Shown piece after piece: positions 16,001 to 51,392 of a DNA stretch of 64,000 nucleotides. The first letter of the stretch is position 1. The number at the start of each line of letters is the position of its first letter. This DNA comes from Octopus vulgaris (lineage: Eukaryota): contig OX597820.1 of NCBI GenBank assembly GCA_951406725.2, forward strand, positions 79,546,001-79,610,000, given 5' to 3'. The notes beneath the pieces are model-generated. The model ran no database searches and was not told the origin of the DNA. It worked only from the letters and a program-made list of their open reading frames with translations. The position numbers and the translations under genes are program-made.

Positions 16001-19000
16001 TACCAGCCCCTGTCAAACCATCCAACCCATGTCAGCGTGTAAAATAGATGTTTGATGATGAGGAATATTATCTATCTATGGTATCATTTTTTATTTAACT
16101 TTTTTGTTCTTCAACAAGTTAGCGCATGCCAAGGTCAAACTTGTTAAATAGATTAAGTTTTATTGTGTGGTTAAGCATACTTCCCAACCATCTGATCTTA
16201 GGCTCGGTCCTACTTCACATCATCTCAGACAAGTACTGGGGTCGATTCATTTTACTAAAATTCTTCAAAATTCTTCAGCTTGGCCGCAGTCTAATGACTG
16301 AAGCAAGTAAAAGAGGAAAGATACTAAATGCACCCCAATTTCAGTAGTGAATATTTAAGAAAGAAACATTTTAGAGAGACCCAACTTTACATATAGGGGT
16401 GACATTTTGAGGCATTTTTTTTAGAAAAAGAGTGCATTTTATATGGTATCAAATACAGTAAATACATGATGTACATGTATAACATTTTGTTTTTTACATT
16501 ATTTACATTTGATGGATATTTGTTTGTTAACACAACGTTTTGGCTGACATACCCTCCAGCCTTCATCAGGTGTCTTGGGGAAATTTTGAACCTGGGTTCT
16601 CATTCCTAAGGTATTTTTCAATGTATTATCATTATTATCATCATCATCATTATTATTATTATATGCCCATGGGCATATGGCATAGTGATTAAGAGCATGG
16701 GCTACTAACCTCAAGATTCCAAGTTTGATTCCAGGCAGTGACCTGAATAATAATAATAATAATAATAATAACAACAACAACATCAAAAAATACTTTAGAA
16801 ATGAGAACCCAGGTTCAAAATTTCCCTAAGACACCTAATGAAGGCTGGAGGGTATATCAGCCGAAACATTGTGTTAACAAGAAGCAAGATGAGGACAAAT
16901 ATCCATCAAATGTAAATAATGCACATGATTCCTCATCTCTTAAATATAGAACTGTATTTTGTTTTGTTTTTTCCTTAATTTTTTTTAATTAAAAAAAAAT
17001 TCTTGTTGCAGATATCTAGCATTGGAGAGTATGTGTTTGTTAGCAACATCTGAGTTTTCCCATGAGGCCGTAAAGAAGCACCAAGAAACTGTTATCACCT
17101 CTTTGAAGGTAATATGTTGTCTTTTTCTTTCTTTATCCCCCCCCCCCCCCGCCCATTTCTTATTTCTTTATTATTGAATATTTCCACTTGACTCTATGAA
17201 AGAACACATGTAACTATGTTTATTTGCACATTTACAATAGGCGCAGAAGTGGCTGTGTTGTAAGTAGCCCGCTTACTGATCACATGGTTCTGGGTTCAGG
17301 CCCACTGCGTGGCACCTTGGGCAAGTGTCTTCTACTATAGCCTCAGGCCGACCAAAGCCTTGTGAGTGGATTTGGTAGAAAGAAAGTAAAAGAAGCCCAT
17401 CGTGTGTATATGTATATATATATATATACATACATATATATATGTTTGTGTTTGTCTCCCCCAACATTGCTTGACAACCGATGTTGGTGTGTTTACGTCC
17501 CTGTAACTTAGTGGTTCGGCAAAAGAGACTGATAAAATAAGTACTAGGCTTACAAAGAATAAGTCCTGGGGTCAATTTGTTCGACTAAAAGCGATGCCCC
17601 AGCATGGCTACAGTCAAATGACAGAAACAGTTAAAAAGTAAAAAAAAAAAAAAGTAGCACATGGTATCTGTAGCCACTTGCCATAGAAGCAACAGCTTTC
17701 ACTGTTCATTCGCAACAGAAGCAACTTTTGTAACTGTCCATTTGTGATAGAGGCACCATTTAATATAAAGGTGCCATTTGTTGCTGTCTGTGCTAAAGGA
17801 AATATTTGTGAATAGTAAAAATGTTTGTGGATAAACTTGTGAATTTCCATTTGTAATGAAGCATAGAATATCGTTAGTGTTGGTCACTTGTATGAAGTAG
17901 GAAAGACCTTAGAAAAGAAACACAACAAATATTAAAATGCTACTTGCTGTTAGTTGAGTTCGTGATAGGGCTTTGAGCCTAAGTTTTAGCCATTTCTCCG
18001 ATGTTCTTAATGCTCCTGAGATGCTGCTTGTCTTCAAGTGCAAAACCCAGTGTCCATGTAAGAAATTGAGTTTTCTCACCAACTTGTACAAAACAAGAAA
18101 TTATTATTGTTTAATTTTTCTTCAGACGGAACGAGATGTGAGTGTGCGTCAGCGAGCTGTCGACTTATTATATGCCATGTGTGACAGGACCAATGCGGAA
18201 GAGATTGTGGCAGAAATGTTGGAATATCTGGAATCTGCTGATTACTCCATTCGAGAGGAAATGGTAGGTTTTCAGATTTTTATTTTTTCTTTGTTTTTTT
18301 TTGTGTACTTGCACTCTTTAACCCTTTAACTGAAAAATTAAATTTATTGGTTATTCCAGTAATTATGTTAAATATCTACCAAAAAAAAAAAAAAAAAGTA
18401 AAATTGATATTTTCTGCCAGTCACATTTCCTCCATAAACTTTGCATATCTCAACTAAAAGTAATTTCAGATATGACATTCCTCAACAAAAGATTGGTTTA
18501 TAAAACTGCCTTCTGCAGTTAAGGGTAATAAAATTTTGAGTGGATGTATCTGATTTTTGTAGTAAAAGGGTTAAAAGCTTTGCAGGAGTCCAACTTCACT
18601 GGCATATATTTTCTCAGAGATGAAAATTCTGCCCATTTTAAATCAGATTCTTTATTACAGATTCTTATTAAAAAATCAATAGTTTAAATTATTGATTTCT
18701 GTTATTTGCAATATTTTTTTATTGATTGCTTTGTAGAGAGGTTGAACCAGTAAATTTGAATCTGTAACATTGATAATTGTAATAATGATAATAGTGATAA
18801 TAAAAATAATAATTTCAAATTTCAACACAGTCATACATTTTTAGGGGAGTAACTTCACTCATTTTAATCTGATACTAATTTTATTAGTCCCACAATAGTA
18901 AAAAGCAAAATTGATTTCAGTGAGATGTGAACTCACCATGTCATCTGACAAAACTCAATACTACAATACATTTCATTTGGATTTCACTCTTTTCTACCAC

Positions 19001-22000
19001 TCCAGCTGTTTGGCTTCAGAGGAAAGACCATGATATATGATAATATTTATAGTATAACATTTATTATATAACAATATTTATTGTATGATATCTCATGTAT
19101 TCTAATATTTATGCTTTCCTCAGAAGCATCATAAATGAAGTGAAATAGTTTTTATTAGAGACTGAGGATTGAAACCACATTGCAACCTTGACTAGGAAGC
19201 AGCTTACTTCAACGGCATGGAAAAGTGAACATTAAAAGGATGATGAACCCCTGATGCTAAACTTGTTACATCATATTTATTAATACAGCTGTAAAGATTC
19301 GTTATAATTTTTTATTTAATTAATTGCTTTTCCAATTTTTTCCAGGTCCTAAAAGTGGCCATTTTAGCTGAGAAATATGCTGTAGATTACACCTGGTATG
19401 TGGATGTAATTCTAAACCTGATCCGAATTGCTGGAGATTATGTGAGTGAAGAGGTAAGCAAACACGGTATCATGTTCATTTTCTTACTTGAAATTTAAAT
19501 GGACTTTCTGGTCACATTGTAATATTTGGTGTATATGTGTATGTGCAGATGTACCTGCATATGTATATGTGTGTATTTGATCTCTAACAGAATGCAATAA
19601 AGTTGTCCCCTGGTGATCCATTGCAGATAGGTATTCAAATGTACTTGAAACCTCCAATGCTGCATTCTACATGTTCAAACATACATAGGATCTAATGAGT
19701 TATATTTGTGTTCATCTTAATTTTCCATTCTGTGCGTATGTATATCAGAGCTAGTAACTTACACTCTGTCATACGTGCACACTGACATTGCACACACACA
19801 CACACAAAATAATGTAGATTATTTTCTTAAATAGTCCTAATTTTTTTTGTCAAATTGTAAACGCATTTATCTTTAACCAGGTTGATGGAAAGATGTGATG
19901 CTGTGTCCAGTGTCACTGATCACCACAAGGCTTTGACTCTTTAGCTTTCAGCTTATTCTGTCAAATGTAATCCTTATTTACTCACATTGTTTTCAACTAA
20001 ATATTCATTATCTTGTAGTTTTGAGATTTCAATGATGAGATTGTTTATCTTTAGAATGATATTGTAGGGTAGGTGCAAGAGGTTGAATCTGACCAGTATG
20101 AGTATAAACAAGTAGAATATTTGGGTTAGGCCAATTTAAATGCTAAAAGGATAACATGGAACGCATTCAGGTCAGTGTGGGCTGTATGGTGACCCCTCAC
20201 TAGTGCTGGTGATATGAAAAGAGCACTCAGTAAGTGCTGTAAACTGGTTGGCAATTGGAAGGGCACCCAGCTGTAGAAACTATGCCAATGCAGATAGTGG
20301 AACACAATGTAGTCCTTGCACCAATCAGATCATGTTAAACCATCCAACCCATGTCAGCATGGAGCTTTAACATTAAATGGTACTGCTGGTACCACATAAA
20401 AAGCACTGGTGCTGGTGCCATGTAAAAGCACTGGTGCTGGTGCCATGTAAAAAGCACTGGTGCTGGTGCCACGTAAAAAGCACTGGTGATGGTGCCACAT
20501 AAAAAGCATTGGTGCTGGTGCCACATAAAAAGCACTGGTGCTGGTGCCACATATAAAGCACCCAGTACACTCTGTAAAGTGGTTGGTATTAGGAAGGGCA
20601 TCCAGCTGTAGAAACCAAGACAAACAGACTATGGAATCTGGTGCTGCTCTGCAGTCTGTCAGATCCTGGCCTTGCCAACTCTTGACAAACTGTCCAACAA
20701 ATGCCAACATAGAAAAAGGATGTTAAATGATGATGATGATGATGATGTTTATCATTATCATCATCTTCAAATTGCAAAAACTTGAAAAAGGAAAGCAGCT
20801 TTAGTATCAACCTTAGAATTTTAAGACTAAAACAAAGAAGAAAGAAAGAAAACTTCTGCAGATAGGATACAAATAGTATTGTTGTTCTAATTACAATCTA
20901 GAGTTGTCAAAAAATTAAACCAATATGTTATGCAAATGTAATACATATTAAAGTAATTAGCTGTTTTAAATTCAGTAAAGGGAGATGGAATGAATATGTT
21001 TCTCATTGATCATTAACTACAAAAATATTGGGTATTGGTTTTTACTTGTGATTGATCTTATCTTAATTCTATGTTACTTGGTGTTAATTAAGAGACTGAT
21101 TAACAATACACATTCTGTTTTCGTTATCTTACAAGGTCTGGTATCGAGTTATCCAGATTGTCATTAACAGAGATGATGTACAAGGATATGCTGCCAAGAC
21201 AGTCTTTGAAGTAAGGAATCTTTTAATTATTCTTTGTATTTTTTAACTTTTCATTGTTTTTGACATTGGACTGCAGCCTTTCTAGGACCCTTTCTAGAAG
21301 TGTTTCAGTCAAACAAATTGACCCCCAATATTTATTTTTGATGAAATAAGTACCAAACTGCAGTCTTTTTTGCTGAATCACTCTAAGGATGTAAACATAA
21401 ACAAACCAACACCTTTTGTCAAGCAGTGAGGGAACAAATGCCAACGGATCTGGTTGTGGGGAAATATTACCTTGCTTGGATATGGGTGAAAGTTGACGGT
21501 CACAGTATATCTGCCTCAACAAATTCTATCTGACCCATACAAGCATAAAAAGTGGACGTTAAATGATGATGAAGCTATTGTGGGTGAGTTGAAGTCAAAT
21601 AAAAGGGTAAAAATCCCCTTCTGTCATGAAGACCTTGGGATTGCATCTAGAAAAGTTCTCCCCTAAGGCACAAGTCTGGACAAGGTTGTTTATAGAAAAC
21701 CAGCAGTCACCCATGCATGCCAGCCTCCCCTCTCCACGCTACTGATGTTATCCTAGGGAAAGGCAAAGGGGCCCAACACAGCTTGGCACCAGTAATGTTG
21801 TAACTCATTCCTACAGATGAGCGAACTGGAGCAACGTGAAATAAAGTGTCTTGCTCAAGGACACAGCACACAGTTTGGTCTGGGAATTGAACTCACTAGT
21901 TCATTATTGTGAGCCTAATGCTCTAACCACTGAGCCATGCACTTTCACCGAAGTCAAATAGTTCAGTTGGAAAATAACCATATCTCACCAGTATAGGTGC

Positions 22001-22900
22001 AAAATTTAAACATTTGAAAGGGATTTTGACTTGGTTATGTTAAGGTGTCATCATTGCAAATAAAATGTTTAAACAAACTGTCAACAGTTGTCAAGAGATG
22101 GTGGGAGACAAACACAGAAACACACGCATAAATATATACACATGTATGTATAAATGATGGATTCTCTCATCGAAGACTGCATATGAGTTTTTAGTTTTTT
22201 GTTTATAGTGATGAAATGTTTATGCTGTATGTTAGCTCCCTCTCTCCATCAAATCAATGTTGCCTGTATAGGGGCACAAGTGTCCCATATGGGCTTCTTT
22301 CAGTTTCTGTGTACCAAATCCACACACAAGGTTCTAGTCTTGTATGAAACCAATCCCTGGTGCCAAAAAGGCTGTGGACCTCTTCCATGGGTGGCACCAT
22401 TTCTTCAACTTTTTCATGAATTAAAATAATGATTGTGATGTTTCTGCCATTGATAATAATGTTGAAAATTGCAAATGAAAACAACCCATTCATTATATTT
22501 CAGTTCTGACTTACCGAACTGATGGTCTTTGATGATTTTCTTCACTTTCGTTGTAGGCTCTACAAGCTCCTGCCTGTCATGAAAACATGGTCAAAGTTGG
22601 AGGTTATATTCTGGGCGAGTTTGGCAACCTTATTGCTGGTGACCCAAGATCAAGGTAAAATACTTTCGCTGCCATCAGTCTCTCTCTTTCTCTTTTACTT
22701 GTTTCAGTCATTTGACTGCAGCCATGCTGGAGCACCGCCTTTAATCGAGCAACTCGACCCCGGGACTTATTCTTTTGTAAGCCCAGTACTTATTCTATCG
22801 GTCTCTTTTGCCGAACTGCTAAGTAACGGGGACATAAACACACCAGCATCGGTTGTCAAGCAATGCTAGGGGGACAAACACAGTCACACAAACACACACA

Positions 22901-22956
<56 letters not shown>

Positions 22957-24297: not shown

Positions 24298-24328
<31 letters not shown>

Positions 24329-30300: not shown

Positions 30301-33300
30301 TGTTTTGGAGATTTAAAGTTTTACTTCTTAAAATATCCTTTGTTTACGATGGATTGTTATAGTGTCTTTTGTTGTTTCACAGGGCAACTTTAAATCAAGG
30401 GTAAGTGGAAGCACTACAACCCTCCCTCTATGCATTATCTTGGATTAGATCCCAGTGTAGCTACTTTAAAACTACTTCAGATGTAGACATTATTTTCAAG
30501 TGTTTTCTAGAACTTCACAAATTTCATCTGCATAACTGGCTTCCCTTTCTGCATCTGTGTGTGTAGATTGATTCATTGAATCTCAAATAATACAGAAATT
30601 ATGCCATTTCTTTCAAATTCTGCTACTCTTAATTCAATGTATTTTTTTACCCTTTTCCCCATTTCAGCATTCCACTCCTAGCAACACAGGTGTCTCTATA
30701 GATCTTCTTGGGCTGGGATCTTCTACACCTTCCACTACAAATAAGCTAACATCAGCAAGTGGTCTGCTGGTCGATGTTTTTGCTGATAATTATCCTACTG
30801 CATCAAACGGCTTAGAATCATCCGGACTAACGTTGGGAGCAGATGAAAGTTTTAAAAAGTACGTATTCCTGCCTGTTTGTTATTCATTTATTTGTTTCAG
30901 TCATTTGACTGCAGCCATGCTGGAGCACCACCTTTTAGTCAAACAAATCAATCCCAGGACTTAATCTTTGTAAGCTTAGTACTTATTCATCGGTCTCTTT
31001 TGCTGAACTGCTAAGTTACAGGGACATAAACACACCAGCATCGGTTGTCAAGAGATGGTGGGGGGACAAACACACAGACACATAGATATACGAAGGGCTT
31101 CTTTCAGTTTCCATCTACCAGATCCTCTCACCTATTTCTTTACTACCCACAAGTATCTGTCTTATCATATATTTTCTTGTTCTTATTGGATAGTATGGGA
31201 AGCATGTTTTTTATATATCAATATTATTATTATAATTTTATAATTTTATAGTTAGATGAGGCCTTTGGTTATTTAAACAGACAAATATAATCTTTAATGC
31301 CTAAGACTATACTACAATGGCATATATGGACAATTTAAGTTGGATCGTCTCTTGACCATAGGCTAAAACAGCTGTAAGGAGCAGTTTATTTGTATTATTT
31401 TTATTTTATTATTAATTTACATGTTGATGTATATTGTTTTGTTAGATTTTCACGTTCCTATTTGTATAATTAATAAATAATATGAAATTGTAATATCCAT
31501 AAGTTGATGATCGAAATGAATTTGTTCCCCCATTTTCTTATTTGTATTATGAATTTACGGTAAAATATTTTTTACCTTCACCCATTCAATACAGTAACTG
31601 AATTAATTGCATTGCAATTATAAGCATTTATGTATTTAATATTTGGGTACTTTACCAGCAGTATATTGGATAACTGATATCCCATAGTGGGTTAACTTCA
31701 TAACCCCTATCTTACTTTGTACTATATATATATGTTTCTCCCCTACCCACTGCTTGACAACCTGTGCTGGTGTGTTTATGTCCCCATAATTTAATGGTTT
31801 GGCAAAATACCAGGCTTTGAAAAGAAGTACTGTGGGTTGATTTATTCAACTAAGATTCTTCAAGATGGTGCCCCAGCATGGTCACAGCCTAATGACTGAA
31901 ACAAGAATAAGATACAAGATAAAATGCATTGAGGGACTGACTGACCATTAGATACATCAGTTAATCCGTGCCCTTCTCAAATGCTTGTAGAGTTTTGTAG
32001 ATTTTTTCCTTGCTCCAAAAGACTTTTGTTGATTTTACATTCTGTTTCTGTTTGGGTTTTCTTCCTCTAATTTGGTAAAACCCAACGATATGATAGAAGA
32101 TACTTGCCCAAGGTATCACACAGAAGAATTGAACCCAGAACCTCATTGTGACGTGACTTTCTTAACCACTCAGCCATCATCATCATCATCACCATCATCA
32201 TTTAACGTCCGCTTTCCATGCTGACATGGGTTAGACGGTTTGACTGAGGACTGGCAAGCCAGGAGGCTGAACCAGGCCCCAATCTGATCTGGCAGTGTTT
32301 CTACAGCTGGATGCCCTTCCTAACGCCAACCACTCTGAGAGTGTAGCAGGTGCTTTTTACGTGCCACTGGCTCAAGGGGCCAGAGGAGCTGGCATCGACC
32401 ACGATCGGATGGTGCTTTTTACATGCCACCAGCACAGAAGCCAGTCAAGGCAGCACTGATATCAGCCACGTTCAGATGGTGCTATTTATGTGCTACTGGC
32501 ACAGGGCTCACAACTACAAATTCTATTTGATTTGATATTGCTGATGTTGATGTACTTGACTCGGCATCGGCATCGGCCACCATGTTGGTATTATTTGTCC
32601 ATTTGTTAATTTATTTCAAAATATCAATTTTGTGTTTTTAAATATCTATTTTACAGTTTGTATAAAAATTATTTCATATCATTTCAAAAAACAAAAAACA
32701 AAAAAAAAACCACGTGTATTGACTCAACTGAATATCTTTGTTTTTTCTTTTTTTTCTTTGCAGATTTATCTGTAAAAACAATGGTGTGCTTTTTGAAAAT
32801 GACCTTTTGCAAATTGGAGTTAAATCTGAATACAGATGTAACTTGTGCCGATTAGGAATGTTTTACGGAAACAAAACATCATTCCATTTCACAGCTTTCT
32901 CCGTTGATATAGAATGTTCAGATAGAATTAGCAGTCATATCCTTTTATTGGCATAGAACCGTATTTTGATGGCATAAAAGATGTACAGACATACTTGAGG
33001 CACCACAATTTCAGTAGTGCATATTCAGGAGAAGACGTTTTTAGTACTTTAACTCTTTCATCACTACCACCACCATCATCATCATCATCATCATTATCAT
33101 CATCATCAAATGTCCTCCTCCCATGTTGGCATGGGTTGGATGGTTTGACAGGAGCTGTCAAGCTGGAGAGCTGCATCAGGTTCCAATTGTCTCTTTTGGC
33201 ATGGTTTCTGTAGTTGGATGCCCTTCCTAACATCAACCACTTTACAGAGTTTACTAGGTGCTTTTCACGTTGCACTGGCATCAGTGCTTTTTACATGGCC

Positions 33301-36300: not shown

Positions 36301-39300
36301 TCTTGGTATAAAAGATGGGCTACAGCAAATATACCACAGATTTGCTTGTTAGCTGTTTGACCTTAACCAGTTGAGCATGTCCCTTGGTTCCTGACGATAT
36401 GTGCATCTCTGGTCATGATTAGAAGTAGTAGGGGAGCATCATATCCATGTGTTGAGAGGAATTCTTTGGAGTTTGGGTAATTCACCTTTAGAAACATGGA
36501 TGTTTCATTCATCATCCTTAAACCAACCTTATTCAGGGACCTTTTAAACAGGATGGACTACTCAACCTGAACTAAATTCTCACTGGACCCTACCTGCAAG
36601 GTCATGCACTATTTATCTTGGTATTAGGTCACCATGCTGCACACATACGGTTCTGATGCATGTACCTGGTGTACTCTTATCAGACGGGTAGTCATGATGA
36701 GCATATTGGGCTTCATATGTTTGTACCCCAGTGTCACTTTGAGGGGGTGTACTGCTCTCTCACTCAATAATGATAATAAGGCCTGCAATTTCAGGGAAGG
36801 GAGTAAGTTAATTACATTGACCCCAGTGTTCAACTGGTACTTATTTTATTGACCCCGAAAGGATGAAAGGTAAAGTCAACCTCAGCAGAATTTGAACCCA
36901 GAACACGAAGACAGACGAAATACAGCTAAGCATTTTGTCGTCTGTGCTAATGATTTTGCTAGCTTTCCTAATAATAATAATAATAGTAATAATAAAACCA
37001 GACAGTGGCTATCTGGTTTTACCAAGGGAACTTGGTAAACTGAATGTTCAGTGGTGTAGCCACTGGGGCAGTCTTTGGATGTCTCCCCACAAAAGTGTTG
37101 CCCAGGGCATATCCCCACCCTCCACTACACTTCTGAGAACATGCTACTGCTGCTACAACTCTTTTGCACTTATCCACTGGCTGCTCTCCAGAATTTTTCT
37201 ATTTCGATCTCTCTCCCTTACTAAAATATTTATTCCTACAAATCATAAACATTGACCCCCCCCCCTCAAACCGTTGCTAATAAAAGTAAAAGGAGGCAAC
37301 TTTAATCAATTATTTAATTAATTAATTATCAATATCAATTTGAAGGATTTCACTTTTTTGTTGTTCTTTATTATAGTCCCCAGCAAGAATCCCAGAAGAT
37401 ATTCCAGGCTCAGAATCCAATGGATGCAGAACAATCAAAGGCCAAGGTCAGGATCCTGTTGAATTCTTATATTTAATGACAAAAGAATTAATGAGATAAC
37501 ATGTTAAGTGTATGATCCGTTATGTTAATCACTTTGTATTGATTTTTCTAATTAGATTTTCTTCTTTTCTAAACATTTCAGATCCTTGGCTTCAACTTGA
37601 GTGTTTTAGAAGGCATTGATCCTAATAAAGATAACTTTGTGTCAGCTGGTATCTTACACACCAAATCCCAGCAGATTGGTTGTTTAGTACGATTAGAACC
37701 CAACTTACAAGCTCAGGTATGAAAGGTTTATGTCTTATGCCTCATCACTACACTTATCATTATCATCATCATCATTTACTGTCTGTTTTTCATGCTGGCA
37801 TGGGTTGGATGGTTTGACAGGAGCTGGAAAGCCAGAAGACTGCACCATATCATTATCTGTTTTGGCAAGGTTTCTGAAGCTGGATGCCCTTCCTAAAGCC
37901 AACCACTTTACAGTGTTTACTGGGTGGTTTTTGTGTGGCATCTGCTTTTTACGTGACACCAGCACAGGTGCTTTTTATGAGGCCCCAGTACAGATGCTCT
38001 TTACTACTTGGCACCAGTATGGGTACTTCTTACATGGCACCAGCATTTGTGCTTTCTATACAAGGAATCACTTGTTTGATTGACCAAATTCTTTACTCTT
38101 TGAATTTATGTATGAGTGGCTGACTATTCCAGAACCACTTATAATTCTCTGACGGAATCTCCATGACACAGTGTTTGATAAAGCTGTTACATCTGGCATG
38201 GGTTGCACTGTTTGGCAAGCGCTGGCAAGGCCAGGAGCCTATCAGGCTAGATCATCCTTCCTAACACCAAAGTGTAACTGCTTTACAGAATACATAAGTA
38301 CTTTAATCCCTCATCTCCTTGCATAAAGCCACCATCTCCCTTGGGGTTCATAGTCTTGTAAGCTGCATGGCAACCTCACTAGTGCTTGTCTTACAAAAAA
38401 TAAAGCAACCTTTACATGCTGTAAAGTGGCTGGCATTAGGGGTGAGAGGTCGAGGCATAGAAACCATGCCAAAGCAAACACTGGAACATGGTGCAGTCCT
38501 GGATCCCATCAGATCCTGTCAACCCCCCTGATTCATGTTAAGCTGGAACATGTATGTTAAATGGTGAATATATATATATATATATATATGAGTCCTCTCT
38601 GCTGAGTTGTTGGTGTTAGGAAGGACATTCAGCTGTAAAAATCCTACCAAAACAGTCACAGAAATCCGGTGCTGGCTCCAGCTTGGCTGGCTCTTGTGGT
38701 ACTGTCCCACCAATGCTAGTATGGAACATGGATGTTAAATGATGATGATACACACACACTCTCACACCACAGAACTTCCCAAAACTAGAAACCGGTATCT
38801 AAACATTATCTGAGCCTAATTAGGTTACCTATGAAGAAAAACCAAACAATACCAAAGTAAGCGATCCCTACAGACTATGAATCCACAAATACTTTCCACT
38901 TTACAAGATTGATGGACAATTGAGAATCACAAGGCTAAGATACATATATACACACACTCTGTCAATCCTTAGTGAGGTCCCTTTTTTATTGACAATTGAA
39001 GTTGACCATTGGACGAAAAAATTGAGAGACACTGCTGGACACCCAAACTGTTTTTTCCTTTTTTTTTTTTTTTTTGAATGACTCATTCACTGTTCACTTT
39101 CTGCACATTATTCCATGTACTGTTCTATGCACTTTTGGCTACTTTTGCTGATGAGTTTTATTGCACTAGCCGAGCACTATATGCAATAAGTTCATCATCA
39201 CCATCATCATCATCGTCATTATTATTATACTATGTAACACATTTCCTGACTTGAATAGAATCCGAATGATGTATGTTTTGTTGTGGTTGTTGTTATTATT

Positions 39301-39422
39301 ATTATTATTATTATTGCTTTTTTTTAATGATTTTTGTTTTGCAGATGTATCGTTTGACTGTCAGAGCAAGTAAAGATACGGTGCCAAAGGCTATTGGGGA
39401 CCTGTTGGCATTGCAGTTCTGA
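1277..39422 (+). CDS. AP2A: AP-2 complex subunit alpha (alpha-adaptin), multi-exon gene, 5'-partial (N-terminal exons upstream of window)
   Basis: Twenty exons join in frame (2574 nt including TGA). They give [15 protein letters not shown]...[32 protein letters not shown]...[24 protein letters not shown]...LLALQF*, which matches the alpha-adaptin trunk, hinge and appendage. All introns are GT-AG except one AT-AC. Confidence 0.97.
2163..2292 (+). CDS. AP2A: AP2A exon (130 nt)
   Basis: ttgtag|GGAGACT...CATATG|gtaata; [43 protein letters not shown]. Confidence 0.95.
2738..3340 (-). mobile_element. RTE-derived 3'-end repeat (ORF tail plus 3' UTR)
   Basis: Minus strand RGRPRKT coding remnant near 3340, followed by the common tail repeat ending in (ATG)n. 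Confidence 0.65.
3841..4065. mobile_element. piggyBac-type MITE
   Basis: TTAA-CCCTTTTGTTAT...ATAACAAAAGGG-TTAA (12-nt TIR, TTAA target duplication). A related partial copy lies at ~25864-26085. Confidence 0.8.
4964..5065 (+). CDS. AP2A: AP2A exon (102 nt)
   Basis: ttttag|GGTGTT...AGCAGA|gtgagt; [34 protein letters not shown] (absent from ORF track). Confidence 0.95.
8865..9083. mobile_element. Tc1/mariner-type MITE
   Basis: TIRs agggagtgctgaaaagttcctggcttt / aaagcctggaacttttcagcatgccct. Confidence 0.8.
10385..10840 (-). mobile_element. R4/Dong-like non-LTR retrotransposon 3' fragment (restriction-like endonuclease)
   Basis: Minus strand [33 protein letters not shown]...KIEKYQDLA...[19 protein letters not shown], with frameshifts. 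Ends in an (ATG)n tail. Confidence 0.8.
12252..12360 (+). CDS. AP2A: AP2A exon (109 nt)
   Basis: ttacag|ATTGTT...CCTCCAG|gtaacc; [36 protein letters not shown]. Confidence 0.95.
15359..15581 (+). CDS. AP2A: AP2A exon (223 nt)
   Basis: ctgcag|AGGAT...CTCAG|gtatat; [75 protein letters not shown]. Confidence 0.95.
16529..16574 (-). ncRNA. Minimal hammerhead motif, G12A mutated (probably inactive)
   Basis: Minus strand GACAC CUGAUGA A GGCUG..CAGCC AAA ACGU U GUGUU. Confidence 0.6.
16830..16875 (+). ncRNA. Minimal hammerhead motif, G5A mutated (probably inactive)
   Basis: GACAC CUAAUGA A GGCUG gaggguauau CAGCC GAA ACAU U GUGUU. Confidence 0.6.
17012..17108 (+). CDS. AP2A: AP2A exon (97 nt)
   Basis: ttgcag|ATATCTA...TTGAAG|gtaata; [32 protein letters not shown]. 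Confidence 0.95.
17239..17640 (+). mobile_element. tRNA-derived SINE, family A
   Basis: Same consensus as 22681-23123. Other copies at ~5848-6180, 6202-6598, 11219-11612, 14888-15260, 27400-27752, 30870-31110(-), 55553-56880, 59540-59875. Confidence 0.85.
18126..18263 (+). CDS. AP2A: AP2A exon (138 nt)
   Basis: cttcag|ACGGAA...GAAATG|gtaggt; [46 protein letters not shown]. Confidence 0.95.
18318..18574. mobile_element. piggyBac-type MITE
   Basis: TTAA-CCCTTTAACT...AGTAAAAGGG-TTAA. Confidence 0.65.
19346..19453 (+). CDS. AP2A: AP2A exon (108 nt)
   Basis: ttccag|GTCCTA...GAAGAG|gtaagc; [36 protein letters not shown]. Confidence 0.95.
20379..20560 (+). repeat. 26-nt tandem minisatellite (~7 copies) within an RTE-tail family repeat
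   Basis: Unit CTGGTGCTGGTGCCACATAAAAAGCA repeated head to tail with no spacers. Confidence 0.9.
21136..21210 (+). CDS. AP2A: AP2A exon (75 nt)
   Basis: ttacaag|GTCTGG...TTTGAA|gtaagg; [25 protein letters not shown]. Confidence 0.95.
22557..22654 (+). CDS. AP2A: AP2A exon (98 nt)
   Basis: ttgtag|GCTCTA...TCAAG|gtaaaa; [33 protein letters not shown]. Confidence 0.95.
22681..23123 (-). mobile_element. tRNA-derived SINE, family A (well-preserved copy)
   Basis: Minus strand aggtgcaggagtggctgtgtggtaagtagcttg...gggttcagtcccactgcgtggcaccttgggcaagtgtc...gaaacaagtaaaagag, with an internal TA microsatellite and many CpGs retained. Confidence 0.85.
25243..25372 (+). CDS. AP2A: AP2A exon (130 nt)
   Basis: tttcag|TCCTATT...CAAGAG|gtatgt; [43 protein letters not shown]. 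Confidence 0.95.
25420..25806. mobile_element. Long-inverted-repeat MITE-like element
   Basis: gattttgttgtgtcttgggtgggtcatta... pairs with ...taatgaccctcccagcatgcaacaaaatc, and the inner arms are also complementary. A related copy starts at ~33940. Confidence 0.65.
26332..26555. mobile_element. piggyBac-type MITE (second family)
   Basis: TTAA-CCCTTTAGCATT...AATACTAAAGGG-TTAA. Related copies at ~2305-2515 and ~19935-20155. Confidence 0.8.
27980..28270 (+). mobile_element. RTE-clade LINE 3' fragment
   Basis: [21 protein letters not shown] matches the RTE C-terminal G.R.RGRP..RW motif. Confidence 0.7.
28402..28503 (+). CDS. AP2A: AP2A exon (102 nt)
   Basis: tcgcag|GTCCTT...GTCTTG|gtgaga; [34 protein letters not shown]. 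Confidence 0.95.
29606..29785 (+). CDS. AP2A: AP2A exon (180 nt), end of trunk and start of hinge
   Basis: tcaaaaag|GCTACT...TCACAG|gtcagc; [60 protein letters not shown]. Confidence 0.92.
30383..30400 (+). CDS. AP2A: Candidate 18-nt AP2A hinge microexon (GNFKSR)
   Basis: tcttttgttgtttcacag|GGCAACTTTAAATCAAGG|gtaagt. Consensus acceptor and donor, length divisible by 3, no stop, located inside a phase-0 intron. Confidence 0.65.
30668..30858 (+). CDS. AP2A: AP2A exon (191 nt), hinge
   Basis: tttcag|CATTCC...TTTAAAAA|gtacgt; [44 protein letters not shown]...GADESFK. It carries the DLLGL and LLVDVF motifs typical of alpha-adaptin hinges. Confidence 0.9.
32764..32936 (+). CDS. AP2A: AP2A exon (173 nt), appendage Ig-like subdomain; ends at U12-type AT donor
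   Basis: ttgcag|ATTTATC...AGCAGTC|atatcctttt; [57 protein letters not shown]. Confidence 0.93.
32937..33713 (+). other. U12-type (minor spliceosome) AT-AC intron, 777 nt
   Basis: 5' splice site ATATCCTTT at 32937, branch site TTCCTTAAC at 33696-33704, terminal AC at 33712-33713. Splicing joins C+AG (Gln) and keeps the frame. Confidence 0.93.
33714..33837 (+). CDS. AP2A: AP2A exon (124 nt), appendage; begins after AC acceptor
   Basis: tagtac|AGTTGAAT...TTCAT|gtaagt; [42 protein letters not shown]. Confidence 0.92.
35018..35193. repeat. 176-nt element with perfect 26-nt inverted repeats
   Basis: AGGGTTCAACAAGGCGCAGCTGTAGA (35018-35043) / TCTACAGCTGCGCCTTGTTGAACCCT (35168-35193). Confidence 0.85.
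35377..35493 (+). CDS. AP2A: AP2A exon (117 nt)
   Basis: tttcag|GTATAGT...AATAA|gtgagt; [38 protein letters not shown]. Confidence 0.95.
37377..37446 (+). CDS. AP2A: AP2A exon (70 nt)
   Basis: ttatag|TCCCCAG...GCCAAG|gtcagg; [23 protein letters not shown]. Confidence 0.95.
37582..37716 (+). CDS. AP2A: AP2A exon (135 nt), appendage platform subdomain
   Basis: tttcag|ATCCTT...GCTCAG|gtatga; [45 protein letters not shown]. Confidence 0.95.
39345..39422 (+). CDS. AP2A: AP2A last coding exon
   Basis: ttgcag|ATGTAT...TTCTGA; [25 protein letters not shown]. Confidence 0.95.
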   Translation: MYRLTVRASKDTVPKAIGDLLALQF

Positions 39423-40419
39423 GTGGAGAAAGAATAAAGATAATACTTTTGACATTAACATCATCTGTGAACTTTCTTCCTGGCAGATAAAGAGTTAATT
39501 AAATAATATAAAATATCAAATGAAACAAGATTGCATACGACAGCATTAACAAAACATGTTGTGATGAAAAAGAAAGGCAAAAATTAAAGAAAGAAAACCA
39601 TACGGGAGAAAAAAAACATGAGGATGATCGATTCTTTCTTTAGAATTAATAAATATGTGTCCAAAATTGTTAATTTTTATCTACCTTGCCATGTCCAGTG
39701 TAGTGTTTGACTGGTGTTCAGTACAATATGAGGAAGAGGAGACAACTTGGCTTAAGTTTAGATGGAAAAAAAAAATGAATGAATAAATGAATAAAAAAAA
39801 AAGTGGTAACTGAATTCAAAAGACAAACTAATGCTAGGCATCGAAATGGCAGGAGTGCATGGGGAAGAGAATCTAGATTTTAGATAATTACCGGCCAACA
39901 GTTTTAAACGTATTTGTGAATGGTTAAAAAAAAAACCAAAGAAAAACAAATAAAAGCAGCAGCGTAAATAATAAACAAACAAGTTTAATACTTCTTTGAG
40001 TGGAAAAACCAAAAGGAACTGTTGTTGACTGGTAGTGTGTTTCTTAGTTGACTTTGAGATGTTTTTTTTTTTCAAGACCAACAAAAAAAAAAAAACTTTA
40101 AAAAAGAACAACAAAAAGTGAATAAAAAAAAGGAAGTCTAAATAATTCACAATTCCATCATAAATACCAAAGCTCCAACTTTTCCTCTGAGTTAATGCTT
40201 TGTTCTACAAAAATAATGATGACTTCTCTCTCTCTCTCTCTCTCTCTCTTCTTTTGCATTGTTTGCTGCTGCCTTTTCTCTTCTCTTCTCTGTCTCCCTC
40301 ATTCCCCTCAACCATCTTAGTTTCTTTTATCTTTCTCTTACAGACATATATATATATACATGAACATGTATATATGTATGTATATATGTATTATATATAT
40401 ATATATATATATATGTATT

Positions 40420-40470
<51 letters not shown>

Positions 40471-42310
40471 GCATACGCACATACACATAGTAAGAGAGTC
40501 TGGTGCGAGTGCAAGTATGCATACGTATGCGTATTGTGTGTTTTTAAACATTTAGCTCAGTCAACTGAAGCGTTCTACCTCTTTGCTTTCGTTTCCCTCA
40601 ACATCTCCTTCATTTCCAAACGATTAAGAAGGTACAAGATTGTTACGGTTGTGCACTTGGTGTATATAAATAGCTTGGCTAGTGTATTTACTGTTTACTA
40701 GTGGTTGATTATGTTTTCTTCGTTAGTGATATACTGATCAAACTTGCAAATTTAATTGACTAGATTAGTTAACTCTCCATCGGGTTTGATAATTTGTCGA
40801 GACGTAAATTCACTTTCAAGTGTGATAAATGTTGGTGAAGATGAAGGGTGGACATCTATTCGCAGGGAACGAGCTAATAGATGGAAAACACGGAGGTGGG
40901 GAATCTATGTACGAACCAATCATTAATGCCCTTTCTAGTTTGCTGTCATTGTCCCGCTTACGTGTTAGTGGGGTTAGAAAAAGGAGGCCCTAAGTTAAAT
41001 TTCAAATTCTTGCGCCCTACATTCAATTATTTCCCAATCTTTTCCTTTCACATCCATAATTGTCTTAGGTGTCTTAATGCAAATATTTTGCTGTCTCTGC
41101 TATTCTTAGGAAAAAAGGAAAAAAGAATAACTACAGCATTCAGCAATCTGCTGTTCTGAACAACAAATTAAACATATCACATAGAAACTGTGTGAAAAAT
41201 ATTGTTTCATTGATTCTTTTGCTATCGGTTTCTCAATTGTTTCTTAGTTTTATATGTCATATCATCTGTATCCAGTCTTTCTGTCATTCTCTTTGGCAAA
41301 ATCGTATTCATAGCAGTTAGCAATGTTACAATTCAAGTTTGTTTTCAAATGTTTCAATCAAAAAAAGGTAGACATAACACTTTCATTCTTGCTTAGTGCA
41401 TATGTATGTGTGTGTGTTCAGGTTTGCATGAATATGCACACATGATTATGCACATGCATTGGTTTAATGGTAGGTTGGCAGTGGTGATACGAAAGATACT
41501 AAAGTTTTTTTTTTTTTTTGTAAATTTTTTTTTTTTTTTGTAATTTTGTAAAATTCCTAAGACTATTTTTGCTTTGTTCGCAATGTTTGCAAAACGAATT
41601 GTTTTACTCGTTGCTAAATTGTCTCTTAAAATTCAATATTACCACAATTCAAGTTAAAGGTGACTTGGTAACATTTTGTTCCTTCCTCATATATATACAC
41701 GTGTGTATGTGTGTGTATATATACATATATATGCATACATATGTGTGTATGTATGCATACATATATGTGTGTATATATACACACATACATATGTATATAT
41801 GTCTTTGTTTGTTCCTTCTCATTAATCTCCAATCAACAGTTTTCTGTTTTGAATCAATCAAAGCTGTTTGTTTAGGCTTCTGTTTTGTTCTGCAAATTCT
41901 TCACCTCCTCGGGGTGTGATCCCCTTCCCCCAAAAAAACCCACCCACCCACCCACCTATCTACCTACCCACCCACTTACATGACCCCTTGCCCCCATTCC
42001 CCCTTCCTTCTCTCCTCCGTTGCATCACTTGTTTATTTCTGAACTAAAGTGACCTCTGAAAAAAAATAATTACTGAATGGATAAAAAAAAAAAGAAGAAA
42101 AGAAAAAAAAAACATAAAACAAAGGAACACAGAAAACAAACATAAAAGACATGGCATACACACACACACACACACACACGCACACTTACAAGCATGCACA
42201 CACTCACATGCACACATACAAACACACATGCACATTTATATATCTACACGCAAACATACGTATACATACATACATACATACATACATATGCGACACATAC
42301 ATATATATAC

Positions 42311-42347
<37 letters not shown>

Positions 42348-42410
42348 AATATATATATAAATATATATCTTATGAATGAATAAAGTTGTTAATTTGTAAT
42401 GAGTTGCTGT
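39423..42410 (+). other. Putative AP2A 3' UTR, up to ~3 kb
   Basis: Several AATAAA sites (39433, 39648, 39782 and distal 42379). The distal site is followed by GT-rich sequence. I see no SINE copies in this stretch, unlike the introns. Confidence 0.4.
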
Positions 42411-42948
42411 GCATGATGCTGTTTTATTTAGAAAAGTGTGAAAACACAGTTGAATTAATGATTGTTTTGTTGTGGTTGTTATTGTTATTGTTGTTGTTAT
42501 TCAATATATAAATATCAATAGTTTTATAGACTTCCTATACTGCAACACTGTTAGATTTGTACCAGAACCGGGTCTGCTTGGGCTCTTGATGTAAACCATG
42601 TGGAACATGAAGATAAAACTGAAATAATATCTCCTTTTTCTTCCTCTTCTTCTCCTCATTCTGTATTCCCCCCTGCCCCCACACACCACCTCTCTATCTT
42701 TCTTTCTTTCTCTGTTTGTCTATCAGTCTTTATACACACACACACATATTGAATACTGTTTAGTTGTAAAAAGGACACCCAAATGTCCTGAATCCATGCC
42801 AGGGATACTGTGAGCCCTTTCCACCCCTTTTCAGCATGGAAATATTAACGTAAAACAATGGTGATAATACAGTTCTATATTTAAGAGATGAGGAATTATG
42901 TACATTATTTACATTTGACAGATATTTGTCCTCATCTTGTTTGTTGTT

Positions 42949-42994
42949 AACACAATATTTCGGCTGATATACCCTCCAGCCTTCATCAGGTGTC
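42949..42994 (-). ncRNA. Minimal type I hammerhead ribozyme, catalytic core intact
   Basis: Minus strand reads GACAC CUGAUGA A GGCUG gaggguauau CAGCC GAA AUAU U GUGUU. Stem I GACAC/GUGUU, stem II GGCUG/CAGCC, palindromic 4-nt stem III, AUU cleavage triplet. Confidence 0.8.
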
Positions 42995-43184
42995 TTGGGG
43001 AAATTTTGAACCTAGGTTCTCATTCCTAAAGTATTTTTCGATGTTATTATTATTATTCAGGTCACTGCCTGGAATCAGGCATATGGCGTAGTGGTTAAGA
43101 GCATGGGCTACTAACCCCAAGATTCCGAGTTCGATTCCAGGCAATGACCTGAATAACAATAATAATAATAATAATAATAATAAT

Positions 43185-43730
43185 GCCAATCTTGCTTCAT
43201 TGGACACTAAACTCTGCTTGCGAAGACCTCTTGAGGCAAGGGAAATCGAAATTGAACCAAATTCGATGACAGGCACCCGTGCCAGTGGAGCGCTAGCAGC
43301 TCCATCCGAGTGAGATCTCTGCCAGAGCAGCTGCCTGACTTCCGTGCTGGTGGCGCATAAAAAGCACCATTTGAGCGTGATCATTACCAGCGTCGCCTTA
43401 ATAGCCCTTGTGCCAGTGGCACGTGAACAAAACATTCGAGCAAGGTCATTGTCAGTGCCACTGGACTGACTCCTGTGCAGGTGGCATGTAAAAAAACACC
43501 ATTTGAGCATGGCCGTTGCCAGTACCGCCAGACTGGCCCTCGTGCCAGTGGCATGTAAAAGCACCCACTACACTCTCGGAGTGGTTGGCGTTAGGAAGGG
43601 CATCCAGCTGTAAAAACTCTGCCAGATCAGATTGGAGCCTGGTGCAGCCATCTGGTTCGCCAGTCCTCAGTCAAATCGTCCAACCCATGTTAGCATGGAA
43701 AGCAGACATTAAATTATGATGATGATGATG
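43185..43730 (+). mobile_element. RTE-tail family repeat inserted in the (AAT)n tract of fold-back copy 2
   Basis: Diverged ~63-nt internal tandem units, then ttaggaagggcatccagctgta...gatgatgatgatg. Related copies at ~13860-14172(-), 28640-28880(+), 32176-32580(-), 33065-33380(-), 35565-35990(-), 37760-38070(-). Confidence 0.75.
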
Positions 43731-43784
43731 AATAACATCAAAAAATACCTTAGGAATAGGAACCCAGGTTCGAAATTTCCCCAA

Positions 43785-43830
43785 GACACCTGATGAAGGC
43801 CGGAGGGGATATCAGCTGAAATGTTGTCTT
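43785..43830 (+). ncRNA. Minimal type I hammerhead motif, core intact but stems mismatched
   Basis: GACAC CUGAUGA A GGCCG gaggggauau CAGCU GAA AUGU U GUCUU. Confidence 0.65.
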
Positions 43831-44406
43831 AACAACAAACAAGATGAGGACAAATATCTGTCAAATGTAAATAATGGTGATGATGATGATAAATAAACAC
43901 ACACACACATACACACCTTGTTTTTGAACAAGAATATTATTGATAGGAGTTTGAAGTTTCAACCAGTTAAGCCAATTTTGGACAATGGCTTAGCTTTAGC
44001 TCACCAAAACTTCAAAGTTACTATCAACAGTATCCTTGTTTAAGAATACTAAATTTGTACTCTACTAAAGTATAGAGTAACCTTTGAGATTAATCTAAGA
44101 TTGCTTTTATTATAACTGAACATAACAACAAACATTTATGTATATATATTATACACGCATAATACTTTTACAAGAAGCAGGATGACTAACTACAAAGTTT
44201 GAACCTGCTAACCTTTGTCAGACAGTCCAAAGAACGCTAGCAGGTTGATACTTCGAAGTCACTCTCATCCTCCAACTTGTAAAAGTTTAATAAATATATA
44301 CTCTGCAAAAAGAGTATTGAGTAATTCTTCAGTTTAATCTTCTTAAATTGTTTTTATTAGAACTTGACATAAAAACAAACATAAATATCATTCAATCTGT
44401 CTACAT

Positions 44407-44502
<96 letters not shown>

Positions 44503-45137
44503 CTTCAGCTTCATTGGATTGCATCCCTTTCAGATGTGTGCACTTGCCTGTACACACACAGACACACACACATGTCTGCAGGTAAACCCAAACTAACTAA
44601 CTCCATCTTTCTCTTCCTTACTTTTAGTCTCTCACTTTGTCCCCTCTTTTCTATATATTTTTTTCTTTGTTGAAATGATTGATGAAATCAGTTTTTGAGG
44701 CCTCAAAAATATTCAAACATATCCATATATATTCAATTTATATTGAATTATATGGCTATTTGTTACTAGAATGGGTTTAGTACAAAATATATATATATAT
44801 ATATACATACATACATATATATATATATATACAGTACATATATAGTATGAAAAATAAGTTTACCTAATATGAATAAAGCTTACTTATTTATGTACTAATC
44901 AGTTATTGGTACTTTGATCAATTTTGTAACAAAACTTAAGCTAAATATCATTTGTTGCTGATAATTGTTTATCAGCTAAATTTATTTTTAAAATATCTTC
45001 TATGATATTTAGCCTATAGTAATTATATTCCTTAATTTATGAGTTATGATATTGCTAAATATTGCCAGTTCAGTTGTCATTATATGGTAAGTACAAGAAA
45101 GTACAAGGCTGTATATTTTGATAAAGCTTTTTATTTT

Positions 45138-45526
45138 TACTGTTCTATATTTAAGAGATGAGGAATTGTGTACATTATTTACATTAGACGGATATTTGTC
45201 CTCATCTTGTTTATTGTTAACACAACGTTTCGGCTGGTATACCCTCTAGTCTCCATCAGGTGTCTTGGGGAATTTTCGTACCTGGTTCTCATTCCTAAAG
45301 TATTTTTCGATGTTATTATTATTTAGGTCACTGCCCAAGATTCTGAGTTCGATTCCAGGTAGTGACCTGGAGAACAACAACGATGATAATAATAATAATA
45401 ATAGTAATGTTGAAAAATACCTTAGGACTGAGAACCGAGGTTCAAAATTTCCCCAAGACACCTGATGAAGGCTAGAGGGTAATAACAAACAAGATGAGGA
45501 CAAATATCCATCAAATGTAAACAATG
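45138..45526 (+). mobile_element. Fold-back tRNA-headed SINE with hammerhead motifs, copy 3 (head 5'-truncated)
   Basis: Inverted arms. Only the B-box half of the tRNA head remains (GTTCGATTCC). Hammerhead motif at 45219-45264 (-) and a half-deleted copy from 45457 (+). Tail at 45138-45172. Confidence 0.85.
45219..45264 (-). ncRNA. Minimal hammerhead motif, degenerate core and stem II
   Basis: Minus strand GACAC CUGAUGG A GACUA..CAGCC GAA ACGU U GUGUU. Confidence 0.55.
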
Positions 45527-46115
45527 CTTTTGGTTTTTGCTCCCCCCCCCCTTTTGGATTGAAGGATTAGTTTAAAGAATTATAACATTTTGATTTGTTA
45601 ATAATTTCTTCACATTTCATTTCAAACAAAATGCTGCTTTTGATTCTATTTGTAATTTGTTCTCTACTAAATCCTTTTTTATTATAATAACGACTGCCTT
45701 TCAAAACTACTATTGTTATCATAACACTTTATGATTTACCTGTAATTCTTTACGATTTTCAAAGTCATATCTTCTGCAGGTAATATTAGTTTGGTTAGAA
45801 ACCTAGAAATTGAAAACATTTTTTTCTCTCAATTGATCTTTGGTTTTTCAAAAGAGTGACAACTGAATCCTGTTCCAACCACCCACATTTTCTTCTTTCT
45901 TTCTTTTATCAGTTGTTTCTACTACTACTACTACTACTATTACTACTACCACCACCACCACCACCACTACTAACATTGTTAAAACAGACCAATTTTAGTG
46001 ATTTAACAGTTCTGTTCTGTTTTTGTAGAATTGGTGATGGAACTGACCAGTATGGCTCAACAATTTCCATCCATGTTTGCAGTACAAGCATGGAACCATT
46101 TAGTTAAAAGACATT

Positions 46116-47208: not shown

Positions 47209-51392
<4,184 letters not shown>

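What the first reader, a model, noticed from the sequence alone, without database searches (positions are those of the whole stretch)
16495..45526. Family of fold-back, tRNA-headed SINEs carrying a hammerhead ribozyme in both arms (putative Penelope-mobilised SINE)
Seen: three copies (16495-16956, 42868-43876, 45138-45526) share the layout [inverted partial copy of 3' part]-[tRNA-like head with A and B boxes]-(AAT)n-[~170-nt 3' part]. The 3' part has the consensus GACAC CUGAUGA A GGCUG-loop-CAGCC GAA ACGU U GUGUU, a type I hammerhead whose stem III is only a 4-nt palindrome. Established: such minimal hammerheads are characteristic of the pseudo-LTRs of Penelope-like elements (PLEs), which also integrate with inverted, variably truncated 5' copies. 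Most SINEs instead borrow LINE tails. Inference: this is a Pol III-driven SINE that captured a PLE terminus and is copied by PLE machinery. Three copies in 64 kb hints at high genomic copy number. I cannot tell whether the family is already catalogued.
Basis: partly seen in the sequence, partly recalled or inferred. Interest (0 to 1): 0.9.

Follow-up and report, generated by a model that had tools for sequence, protein, structure and literature searches.

The report
Penelope retrotransposon with tRNA-headed terminal repeat
The three fold-back repeats are short, decayed insertions of the end repeat of an abundant protein-coding Penelope-type jumping gene; that end repeat unusually carries a tRNA-like segment in front of a hammerhead ribozyme motif, and this segment likely served as a built-in promoter that spawned SINE-like short copies.

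Summary
The three copies, the tRNA-like head, the (AAT)n run and the type I hammerhead motif are real. The family is large (3,710 exact core hits, 0 in the control). It is not a separate SINE that captured a Penelope terminus. In the same genome an RT + GIY-YIG-like Penelope ORF ends about 20 nt before the same head (27 of 30 loci). The same 'tail' runs straight into that ORF's start (27 of 30 loci) and codes for its N-terminus (46% identical to a relative). So head-(AAT)n-hammerhead is the pseudo-LTR of an autonomous PLE. Insertions show PLE hallmarks: one long and one short end (41 of 44) and 10-13 nt target duplications (28 of 44, against 8 of 264 controls). The unusual part is the tRNA-derived A/B-box segment inside the pLTR. 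Of 36 arms reaching it, 28 stop at its 5' edge (3 expected), and the 2.5-kb sense strand lacks T4 runs (P about 0.04). A Pol III start is the likelier cause, but a short palindrome at the same spot explains the pile-up almost as well; RNA reads did not decide. No precedent turned up in 10 paper searches.

The parts
16497..16636 (-). Copy 1, inverted short arm: tail positions ~2-145 with a 14-nt deletion; hammerhead relic at 16529-16574 (GAAA box mutated)
16637..16670 (.). Copy 1 junction: inverted (AAT)n, then a stub of inverted head and the palindrome (fold-back joint)
16671..16746 (+). Copy 1, tRNA-like head with A and B boxes (5' part of the PLE pseudo-LTR)
16747..16779 (+). Copy 1, (AAT)n/(AAC)n spacer
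16780..16956 (+). Copy 1, long arm: start of the PLE ORF (ATG at 16801), hammerhead relic at 16830-16875 (CUAAUGA), long end with the ~30-nt extra tail; T-rich ~11-nt target duplication outside
42868..43045 (-). Copy 2, long arm (tail 1-178); hammerhead at 42949-42994 with both catalytic boxes kept
43046..43076 (-). Copy 2, inverted (AAT)n and head positions 56-75, joined to the full head of the other arm
43077..43152 (+). Copy 2, full tRNA-like head
43185..43733 (+). Unrelated ~550-nt repeat nested in the (AAT)n of copy 2
   Evidence: 15 or more other window copies; 67-nt subrepeat
43734..43876 (+). Copy 2, short arm (tail 1-143); hammerhead at 43785-43830; 9-nt target duplication outside
45138..45313 (-). 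Copy 3, long arm (tail 1-178); hammerhead relic at 45219-45264 (CUGAUGG)
45314..45369 (.). Copy 3 junction: inverted head stub joined to head positions ~40-75 (B box only) on +
45394..45527 (+). Copy 3, (AAT)n and short arm; a 22-nt deletion removes the 3' half of the hammerhead

Best explanation
The three repeats are decayed, two-armed insertions of the pseudo-LTR of an autonomous Penelope-type retrotransposon of this genome, and that pseudo-LTR starts with a tRNA-derived A/B-box segment which likely acted as an internal Pol III promoter, so that short head-hammerhead-tail RNAs were likely made from it and copied in trans like a SINE. Shown: the unit is [tRNA-like head]-(AAT)n-[ATG, hammerhead inside the first codons]-~2.4-kb ORF with RT and a GIY-YIG-like C-terminus-~20 nt-[next head]. 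Insertions have one end at tail ~176-178 and the other at ~143-151, with 10-13 nt target duplications, and 5' ends pile up at head -7..+5. Inferred: the element's protein cuts both target strands about 10-13 nt apart and primes two cDNAs, one from each of two internal start sites, which are joined head-to-head in the middle. Inferred: most cDNAs stop at -6/-7 because the RNA begins there. Inferred, weaker: the same promoter may drive the full ORF in tandem or full-length copies. The hammerhead is predicted to work only as a dimer and is not needed to explain the insertions.
For: PLE identity: ORF end then head in 27 of 30 loci. Tail directly upstream of the ORF N-terminal part in 27 of 30 loci (first seen). 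The peptide read through the hammerhead aligns with the N-terminus of relative P0021 at 46% over 126 aa, E 1e-29. RVT_1 E 1e-9 on a natural piece. A profile of the C-terminus hits the Pfam-confirmed GIY-YIG regions of L079 and L067 at E ~2e-9 in a 5-sequence set. Integration: 41 of 44 two-arm elements have one long and one short end; duplication score >=8 in 28 of 44 against 8 of 264 mismatched-flank controls. This fits the published PLE tail, inversion and TSD (PMC8557442; PMC3846280) and two RT start sites with both strands cut and extended (PMC11167929). Pol III part: A and B boxes are the commonest letters while the acceptor stem is not kept. Of 89 arms taken in order along contig C1, 36 reach head +5 and 28 of these stop at -17..+5, against 3.0 expected from the loss rate inside the head, P 7e-24. 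43 of 52 intact heads were not classed as having PLE sequence upstream, and only 9 of 52 were fold-backs onto an inverted head. The stops have a sharp edge at -6/-7, a T|G step 13 nt before the A box. L383 and L384 begin at head +1/+3 and run into the ORF; L387 and L388 jump from ORF sequence to exactly -6/-7. No T4 run in ~2,500 majority columns (14 T3 runs; synonymous-shuffle P 0.04), whereas four ORFs of other PLE families carry 8-15.
Against: The pile-up zone coincides with a 12-nt palindrome (-7..+5; fold). Palindromes at pLTR 5' ends and inverted junctions are known in PLEs without any tRNA segment (PMC3846280). The T4 signal is weak: G4 runs are also absent (P 0.12), a Dong LINE piece has only 1 T4 run, 3 of 28 copies carry a T4 variant in the ORF, and the shuffle covered 737-816 codons from segments broken by alignment frameshifts. 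No diagnostic variants of a separate short-copy lineage. RNA-seq reads from three runs lie equally on both strands, with no pile of starts or ends at the head or at the predicted cut. Pfam does not call GIY-YIG on this family directly. The sample selected by exact core match leans to younger copies, and the long/short count includes 29 loci chosen for a long arm. D. virilis Penelope uses an internal TATA-less, LINE-like promoter (PMC2377424 abstract), and Pol III is thought too weakly processive for long elements (PMC10886601).
Confidence: 0.57

Rival explanations
1. Ordinary 5'-truncated ends of a Pol II-transcribed PLE. The tRNA-derived piece is a passenger fixed in the pLTR of the master, and cDNAs stop or anneal at the short palindrome, which happens to sit at the head's 5' edge.
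For: Same sequence pool for long and short copies. Palindrome at exactly -7..+5. 9 of 52 heads are fold-back joints there. Published pLTR palindromes of 18 and 38 bp at inverted junctions (PMC3846280). Smooth fall in copy number further up the ORF: 2,840 candidates near the 3' end, 345 and 276 near the 5' end.
Against: Most pile-up ends are not fold-backs but joints to other points of the partner arm or to flank (34 of 52). The edge is sharp at -6/-7 although the hairpin's outer stem reaches -14. The A/B boxes are kept while tRNA pairing is lost, and T4 runs are absent.
Confidence: 0.36
2. One reading: an independent tRNA-derived SINE family that captured a PLE terminus and has its own master copies.
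For: Short head-tail copies outnumber ORF-linked ones several-fold to about ten-fold (3,710 against 877 exact hits; roughly 39,000 against 2,300 arms after scaling by 9 of 95 and 17 of 44 exact-match rates). Historically a tRNA or SINE head must have entered the pLTR once.
Against: The autonomous element itself carries the head at the same place (27 of 30 loci). No SINE-specific diagnostic changes or frame-breaking variants. No other repeat with this head and a different body among all fetched loci; the other tRNA-headed repeats are 64-68% alike.
Confidence: 0.05
3. A fold-back DNA transposon or MITE with terminal inverted repeats.
For: Outward inverted arms and target duplications.
Against: The ends are unequal by ~30 nt in 41 of 44, the duplications vary in length (8-17 nt), the inner joints vary from copy to copy, and the arms are part of an RT-coding ORF.
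Confidence: 0.01

Closest known systems
Endonuclease-bearing Penelope-like elements of the Penelope/Poseidon type (PAc of Anolis, PMC11167929; Adineta Pen2a, PMC3846280)
   Same: Single RT + C-terminal endonuclease ORF whose first codons and hammerhead lie in the pLTR; inverted 5'-truncated partner arm; 30-40 nt tail on one end; short TSD; partial tandems; palindrome at the pLTR 5' end.
   Different: The pLTR begins with a tRNA-derived A/B-box segment and an (AAT)n run; pLTR-only insertions dominate; the described PLE promoters are TATA/Inr-like or LINE-like, not tRNA-type.
Schistosome Sm-alpha / Sj-alpha SINE-like elements (as described in PMC2770079, PMC6765202, PMC8490949; the primary paper PMC108972 was not held)
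   Same: tRNA-type Pol III promoter next to a type I hammerhead in a short, high-copy repeat.
   Different: Sm-alpha is described as tandem repeats with no autonomous element carrying the same head in the passages read; here the unit is dispersed, two-armed and is the pLTR of a coding PLE.
TRIMp3: Cassandra, Helenus, Ajax (PMC10886601)
   Same: Small-RNA-derived Pol III promoter inside a terminal repeat, proposed to arise by SINE insertion into it.
   Different: Those are non-autonomous LTR elements with PBS/PPT and 4-5 bp TSD; this is an autonomous PLE with a pseudo-LTR. The paper has 0 occurrences of 'Penelope'.
Animal non-LTR retrozymes (bioRxiv 10.64898/2026.07.22.740005; PMC7229834, listing only)
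   Same: Non-coding, PLE pLTR-related sequences with type I hammerheads.
   Different: Retrozymes are head-to-tail tandem arrays; these copies are head-to-head inverted pairs with TSDs and a tRNA-like head.

Membership tests
Penelope-like element (EN+) | PLE-type reverse transcriptase ORF | tested here: met
   RVT_1 E 1.2e-9; 28-37% to the L079 PLE protein; 52-68% to seven unnamed database relatives
Penelope-like element (EN+) | C-terminal GIY-YIG endonuclease in the same ORF | tested here: met
   Indirect: own profile hits the Pfam-confirmed GIY-YIG regions of L079 and L067 at E ~2e-9; direct Pfam scans gave no GIY-YIG hit
Penelope-like element (EN+) | Pseudo-LTR containing the ORF start, made by partial tandems | tested here: met
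   Tail runs into the ORF in 27 of 30 loci; L378 and L381 are ORF end-head-tail-ORF tandems; L351 and L352 are whole units
Penelope-like element (EN+) | Type I hammerhead motif in the pLTR | tested here: met
   Core boxes, 5-6 bp stems I/II and palindromic ACGU; Rfam models do not detect it
Penelope-like element (EN+) | Inverted 5'-truncated partner copy with a 30-40 nt tail on one end only | tested here: met
   41 of 44 two-arm elements; 15 of 59 loci were single-armed
Penelope-like element (EN+) | Short variable target-site duplication | tested here: met
   28 of 44 against 8 of 264 controls; mostly 10-13 nt
Penelope/Poseidon clade within PLEs | RT phylogeny with named reference elements | tested here: inconclusive
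   The tree groups it with unnamed P0001-P0007 (100/99), apart from the genome's other PLE families; no named references were available
SINE2 (tRNA-derived SINE) | tRNA-derived head with A and B boxes | tested here: met
   46 of 73 identical to a G000 tRNA-Arg gene, z=8; boxes are majority letters
SINE2 (tRNA-derived SINE) | Non-autonomous family distinct from its partner's own sequence | tested here: not met
   Head and tail are both part of the autonomous element; no diagnostic variants
SINE2 (tRNA-derived SINE) | Transcription by RNA polymerase III | tested here: inconclusive
   5'-end pile-up and T4 absence; RNA-seq uninformative
Type I hammerhead ribozyme | Self-cleavage (as a dimer) | not testable with these tools
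   The dimer-type fold evaluates at -20.7 kcal/mol against -29.2 for the cofold MFE; no read ends pile at the cut; no covariation test was possible because copies differ only by decay
Non-LTR retrozyme | Head-to-tail tandem units each with a hammerhead | tested here: not met
   Arms are inverted pairs; the one tandem array seen (L262) repeats ORF end plus head, not the hammerhead

The most novel reading that the evidence does not exclude
An autonomous Penelope element transcribed by RNA polymerase III from a tRNA-derived promoter inside its pseudo-LTR, through a terminator-free 2.5-kb coding strand. Every inserted long-arm end is then a ready-made SINE source: a SINE born inside its own partner, and in vivo evidence that PLEs insert by two cDNAs started at two different internal sites.
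Probability: 0.3. Interest if true: 0.82.

Novelty: new variant of a known kind. Interest (0 to 1): 0.58.

Why it matters
If the Pol III reading holds, it extends small-RNA promoters in terminal repeats (Cassandra, Helenus, Ajax) from non-autonomous LTR elements to an autonomous PLE, shows one concrete route by which a SINE-like parasite arises, and suggests a testable origin for hammerhead-bearing SINEs such as schistosome Sm-alpha. Whichever promoter is used, tens of thousands of arms give a natural data set on PLE integration: the near-strict pairing of one long with one short end, plus 10-13 nt duplications, matches the two reverse-transcription start sites found in vitro and constrains how the 'tail' arises. 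For annotation, such copies would probably be filed as SINEs or MITEs although they are PLE ends.

Tried and rejected
Rfam scans and ARAGORN: no hammerhead or tRNA call on the family. First hunt for the partner PLE through GIY-YIG Pfam hits and a second PLE protein: none of the 30+20+30+13 PLE loci shared the tail; these are other families with other hammerheads. The partner was found only from the upstream flank of L110/L093. L091/L099 first looked like a partner but are R4/Dong-type LINE pieces in the (AAT)n (label recalled; Pfam gave zf-RVT only). L029 is an insertion beside an unrelated PLE. The repeat finder was swamped by the AT microsatellite. The search for related loci in metagenome contigs found no relative, so whether related PLEs in other animals carry a tRNA head is untested. 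The look-up of sequencing runs: no RNA holder listed. Three raw RNA runs added by species label gave 7,400-10,600 laid reads each, both strands alike, no start or end piles; this shows family sequence in RNA libraries, not autonomous transcription. The search of earlier findings returned nothing three times. Ten paper searches found no PLE with a tRNA-type promoter; one search gave 0 papers. Repbase, Dfam and most subscription papers were not searchable, and PMC108972 and PMC5785218 were not held, so the family may already be catalogued. bioRxiv supplements could not be seen. Covariation of stems I/II was not assessed: the copies derive from near-identical masters and the sample was selected on the core.


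Full report
Observation. Each has two outward-facing arms. A full arm reads tRNA-like head (75 nt), (AAT)n, then a 178-nt 'tail' holding GACAC-CUGAUGA-A-GGCUG...CAGCC-GAAA-CGUU-GUGUU. This has the layout of the minimal type I hammerheads described in PLE pseudo-LTRs: long stem II, an unpaired base after the first box, and a palindromic stem III (PMC4209133, parts 1-2 of 4 read). In the window only 2 of 6 arms keep both catalytic boxes; among 95 arms not selected on the core, 56 do. Rfam and ARAGORN do not call the hammerhead or the head. Against 30 tRNA genes of the same genome the head aligns best to tRNA-Arg (46 identical of 73, z=8). The window lies at G000:C7:79546001-79610000 in a 2.8-Gb assembly. 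An octopus-like genome is my guess from size and repeats, not a tool result. The core pattern has 3,710 exact hits against 0 for the control; scaling by 9 of 95 gives roughly 39,000 arms, a loose figure.

Integration signature. I examined 59 loci: 29 best DNA hits, 27 taken in order along C1, and the 3 window copies, after dropping 4 duplicates. 44 have two arms; 41 of these pair one end at tail ~173-178 with one at ~119-157 (mostly 143-151), 2 were scored short-short and 1 long-long, and 15 loci are single-armed. The 29 best hits were selected for a long arm, so there only the second arm is informative. Target duplications scoring >=8 occur in 28 of 44 against 8 of 264 mismatched flank pairs, mostly 10-13 nt. 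An inverted truncated partner, a 30-40 nt tail on one end and 8-10 bp duplications are described PLE features (PMC8557442 passages; PMC3846280 passages). In vitro, an Anolis PLE protein cuts and extends both strands and starts reverse transcription at two internal sites that bound the tail, and its ORF begins inside the hammerhead (PMC11167929, parts 1-2 of 4). My inference is two cDNAs, one from each target strand and each start site, joined in the middle.

The partner. PLE loci found through GIY-YIG searches belong to other families and do not share the tail. The lead came from L110 and L093, which share sequence upstream of the head. A search with that sequence gave 2,840 candidates; in 27 of the 30 loci fetched a BLAST-detectable head follows directly, about 20 nt after the stop codon, and the other three continue into head remnants, (AAT)n or tail (six of these loci look like two groups of segmental duplicates). 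Walking upstream reached an RT domain and then the tail again: in L278, L281, L284 and L289 it runs without a break into the ORF, and 27 of 30 loci found with the ORF's N-terminal part have tail directly upstream. The first in-frame ATG is at tail position ~21, so the hammerhead is in coding sequence; the peptide aligns with the N-terminus of database relative P0021 at 46% over 126 aa. The C-terminus matches GIY-YIG regions by a self-built profile, though not by Pfam directly. Seven unnamed relatives at 52-68% identity are much closer than the genome's other PLE families at about 30%. All copies seen are decayed, about 7% from the column majority. No ORF body lies in the window.

SINE or truncated PLE? 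Among 89 core-bearing arms taken in order along C1, 41 end in the tail or spacer or lack a detectable head, 12 end inside the head, 28 end at -17..+5 and 8 run further upstream. The -14/-17 values are alignment artefacts of fold-back joints. The loss rate inside the head predicts 3.0 stops in that zone (P 7e-24). Of 52 intact heads, 9 were classed as followed upstream by PLE 3' UTR (one more, L346, looks so by eye), 9 as fold-backs and 34 as joined to other points. Many joints fall exactly at -6/-7 and, by eye, none between -8 and -13. L383 and L384 start at the head and run into the ORF; L387 and L388 join ORF sequence to -6/-7, as a template jump from an RNA 5' end would. The sense strand has no T4 run in about 2,500 majority columns, against 8-15 in four ORFs of other PLE families, but the test is weak (P 0.04; G4 is also absent). 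Against this, the zone is also a 12-nt palindrome, and such palindromes mark pLTR 5' ends in other PLEs. ORF-linked and head-starting arms share one sequence; the few differing columns are CpG sites or follow from selecting on the core. RNA-seq reads cover the family on both strands alike with no start or end piles. I put the Pol III reading at 0.57, the passenger-plus-palindrome reading at 0.36 and an independent SINE at 0.05; the PLE pseudo-LTR identity itself is close to certain.

Comparison and novelty. A tRNA-type promoter beside a hammerhead is known from schistosome Sm-alpha (passages in PMC2770079, PMC6765202, PMC8490949). Small-RNA promoters inside terminal repeats are known from Cassandra, Helenus and Ajax, all non-autonomous LTR elements (PMC10886601 passages). 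PLE-derived non-coding hammerhead repeats are known as retrozymes (bioRxiv 10.64898/2026.07.22.740005, part 1 of 5). The one PLE promoter I saw characterised is internal and LINE-like (PMC2377424 abstract). Ten full-text searches showed no autonomous PLE with a tRNA-derived segment in its pLTR. Two cephalopod repeat surveys (PMC13282606 passages and supplement search; PMC8967140 passages) list Penelope and SINE totals without this structure. Repbase and Dfam could not be checked. Verdict: a member of the endonuclease-bearing PLEs, new variant; not a member of SINE2 as a separate family, though the short copies may work like one.

Noticed in passing
window 1277-37716 (+): Exons of an AP-2 adaptor alpha-like gene (Adaptin_N hits; exon candidates; subunit name recalled). 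Copy 1 ends about 35 nt before the 3' splice site at ~16990, its T-rich duplication beside the polypyrimidine tract.
   Followed up: partly
window 43185-43733 and 15 or more other places (e.g. 13862-14174, 32183-32508): Another very abundant dispersed repeat with 26- and 67-nt subrepeats, nested in the (AAT)n of copy 2.
   Followed up: no
window 47300-51400: About 4 kb of AT/ATAC microsatellite with higher-order periods; it gives spurious Rfam miRNA hits.
   Followed up: no
window 60428-60486 (-): Head of a different tRNA-derived repeat, 64% like this head, also seen in many fetched loci.
   Followed up: no
L091 / L099 (L141:6331-8155, L142): Two loci with 1.8 kb of an R4/Dong-type LINE 3' part, (AAT)n and the PLE tail, 97% alike with different 3' flanks and a shared rare loop variant (7 hits in the genome, only these 2 with the LINE): possibly a LINE-pLTR chimera copied as a unit.
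   Followed up: partly
L079:1664-4006, L144:1796-4747, L147:1900-5172: Other PLE families of G000 with many intact 781-aa and ~980-1090-aa frames; the 781-aa family has a U3-A8 type hammerhead core.
   Followed up: partly
L262 (G000:C2:16238300-16239100): Six tandem 150-nt units made of the PLE ORF end plus the start of the tRNA-like head.
   Followed up: no
P0001-P0007: Unnamed database relatives at 52-68% identity are far closer to this family than the genome's own other PLEs (~30%); horizontal transfer is possible but untested.
   Followed up: partly
L203:2096-2119 (PLE 3' UTR/head border): The last 14 nt before the head are a near-perfect inverted copy of the head's first 10 nt, perhaps a fossil fold-back joint by which the tRNA segment entered the element (inference from sequence).
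   Followed up: no
L390:3387-3693 (about 5.5 kb upstream of the window): A further two-armed copy of the family just outside the window.
   Followed up: no
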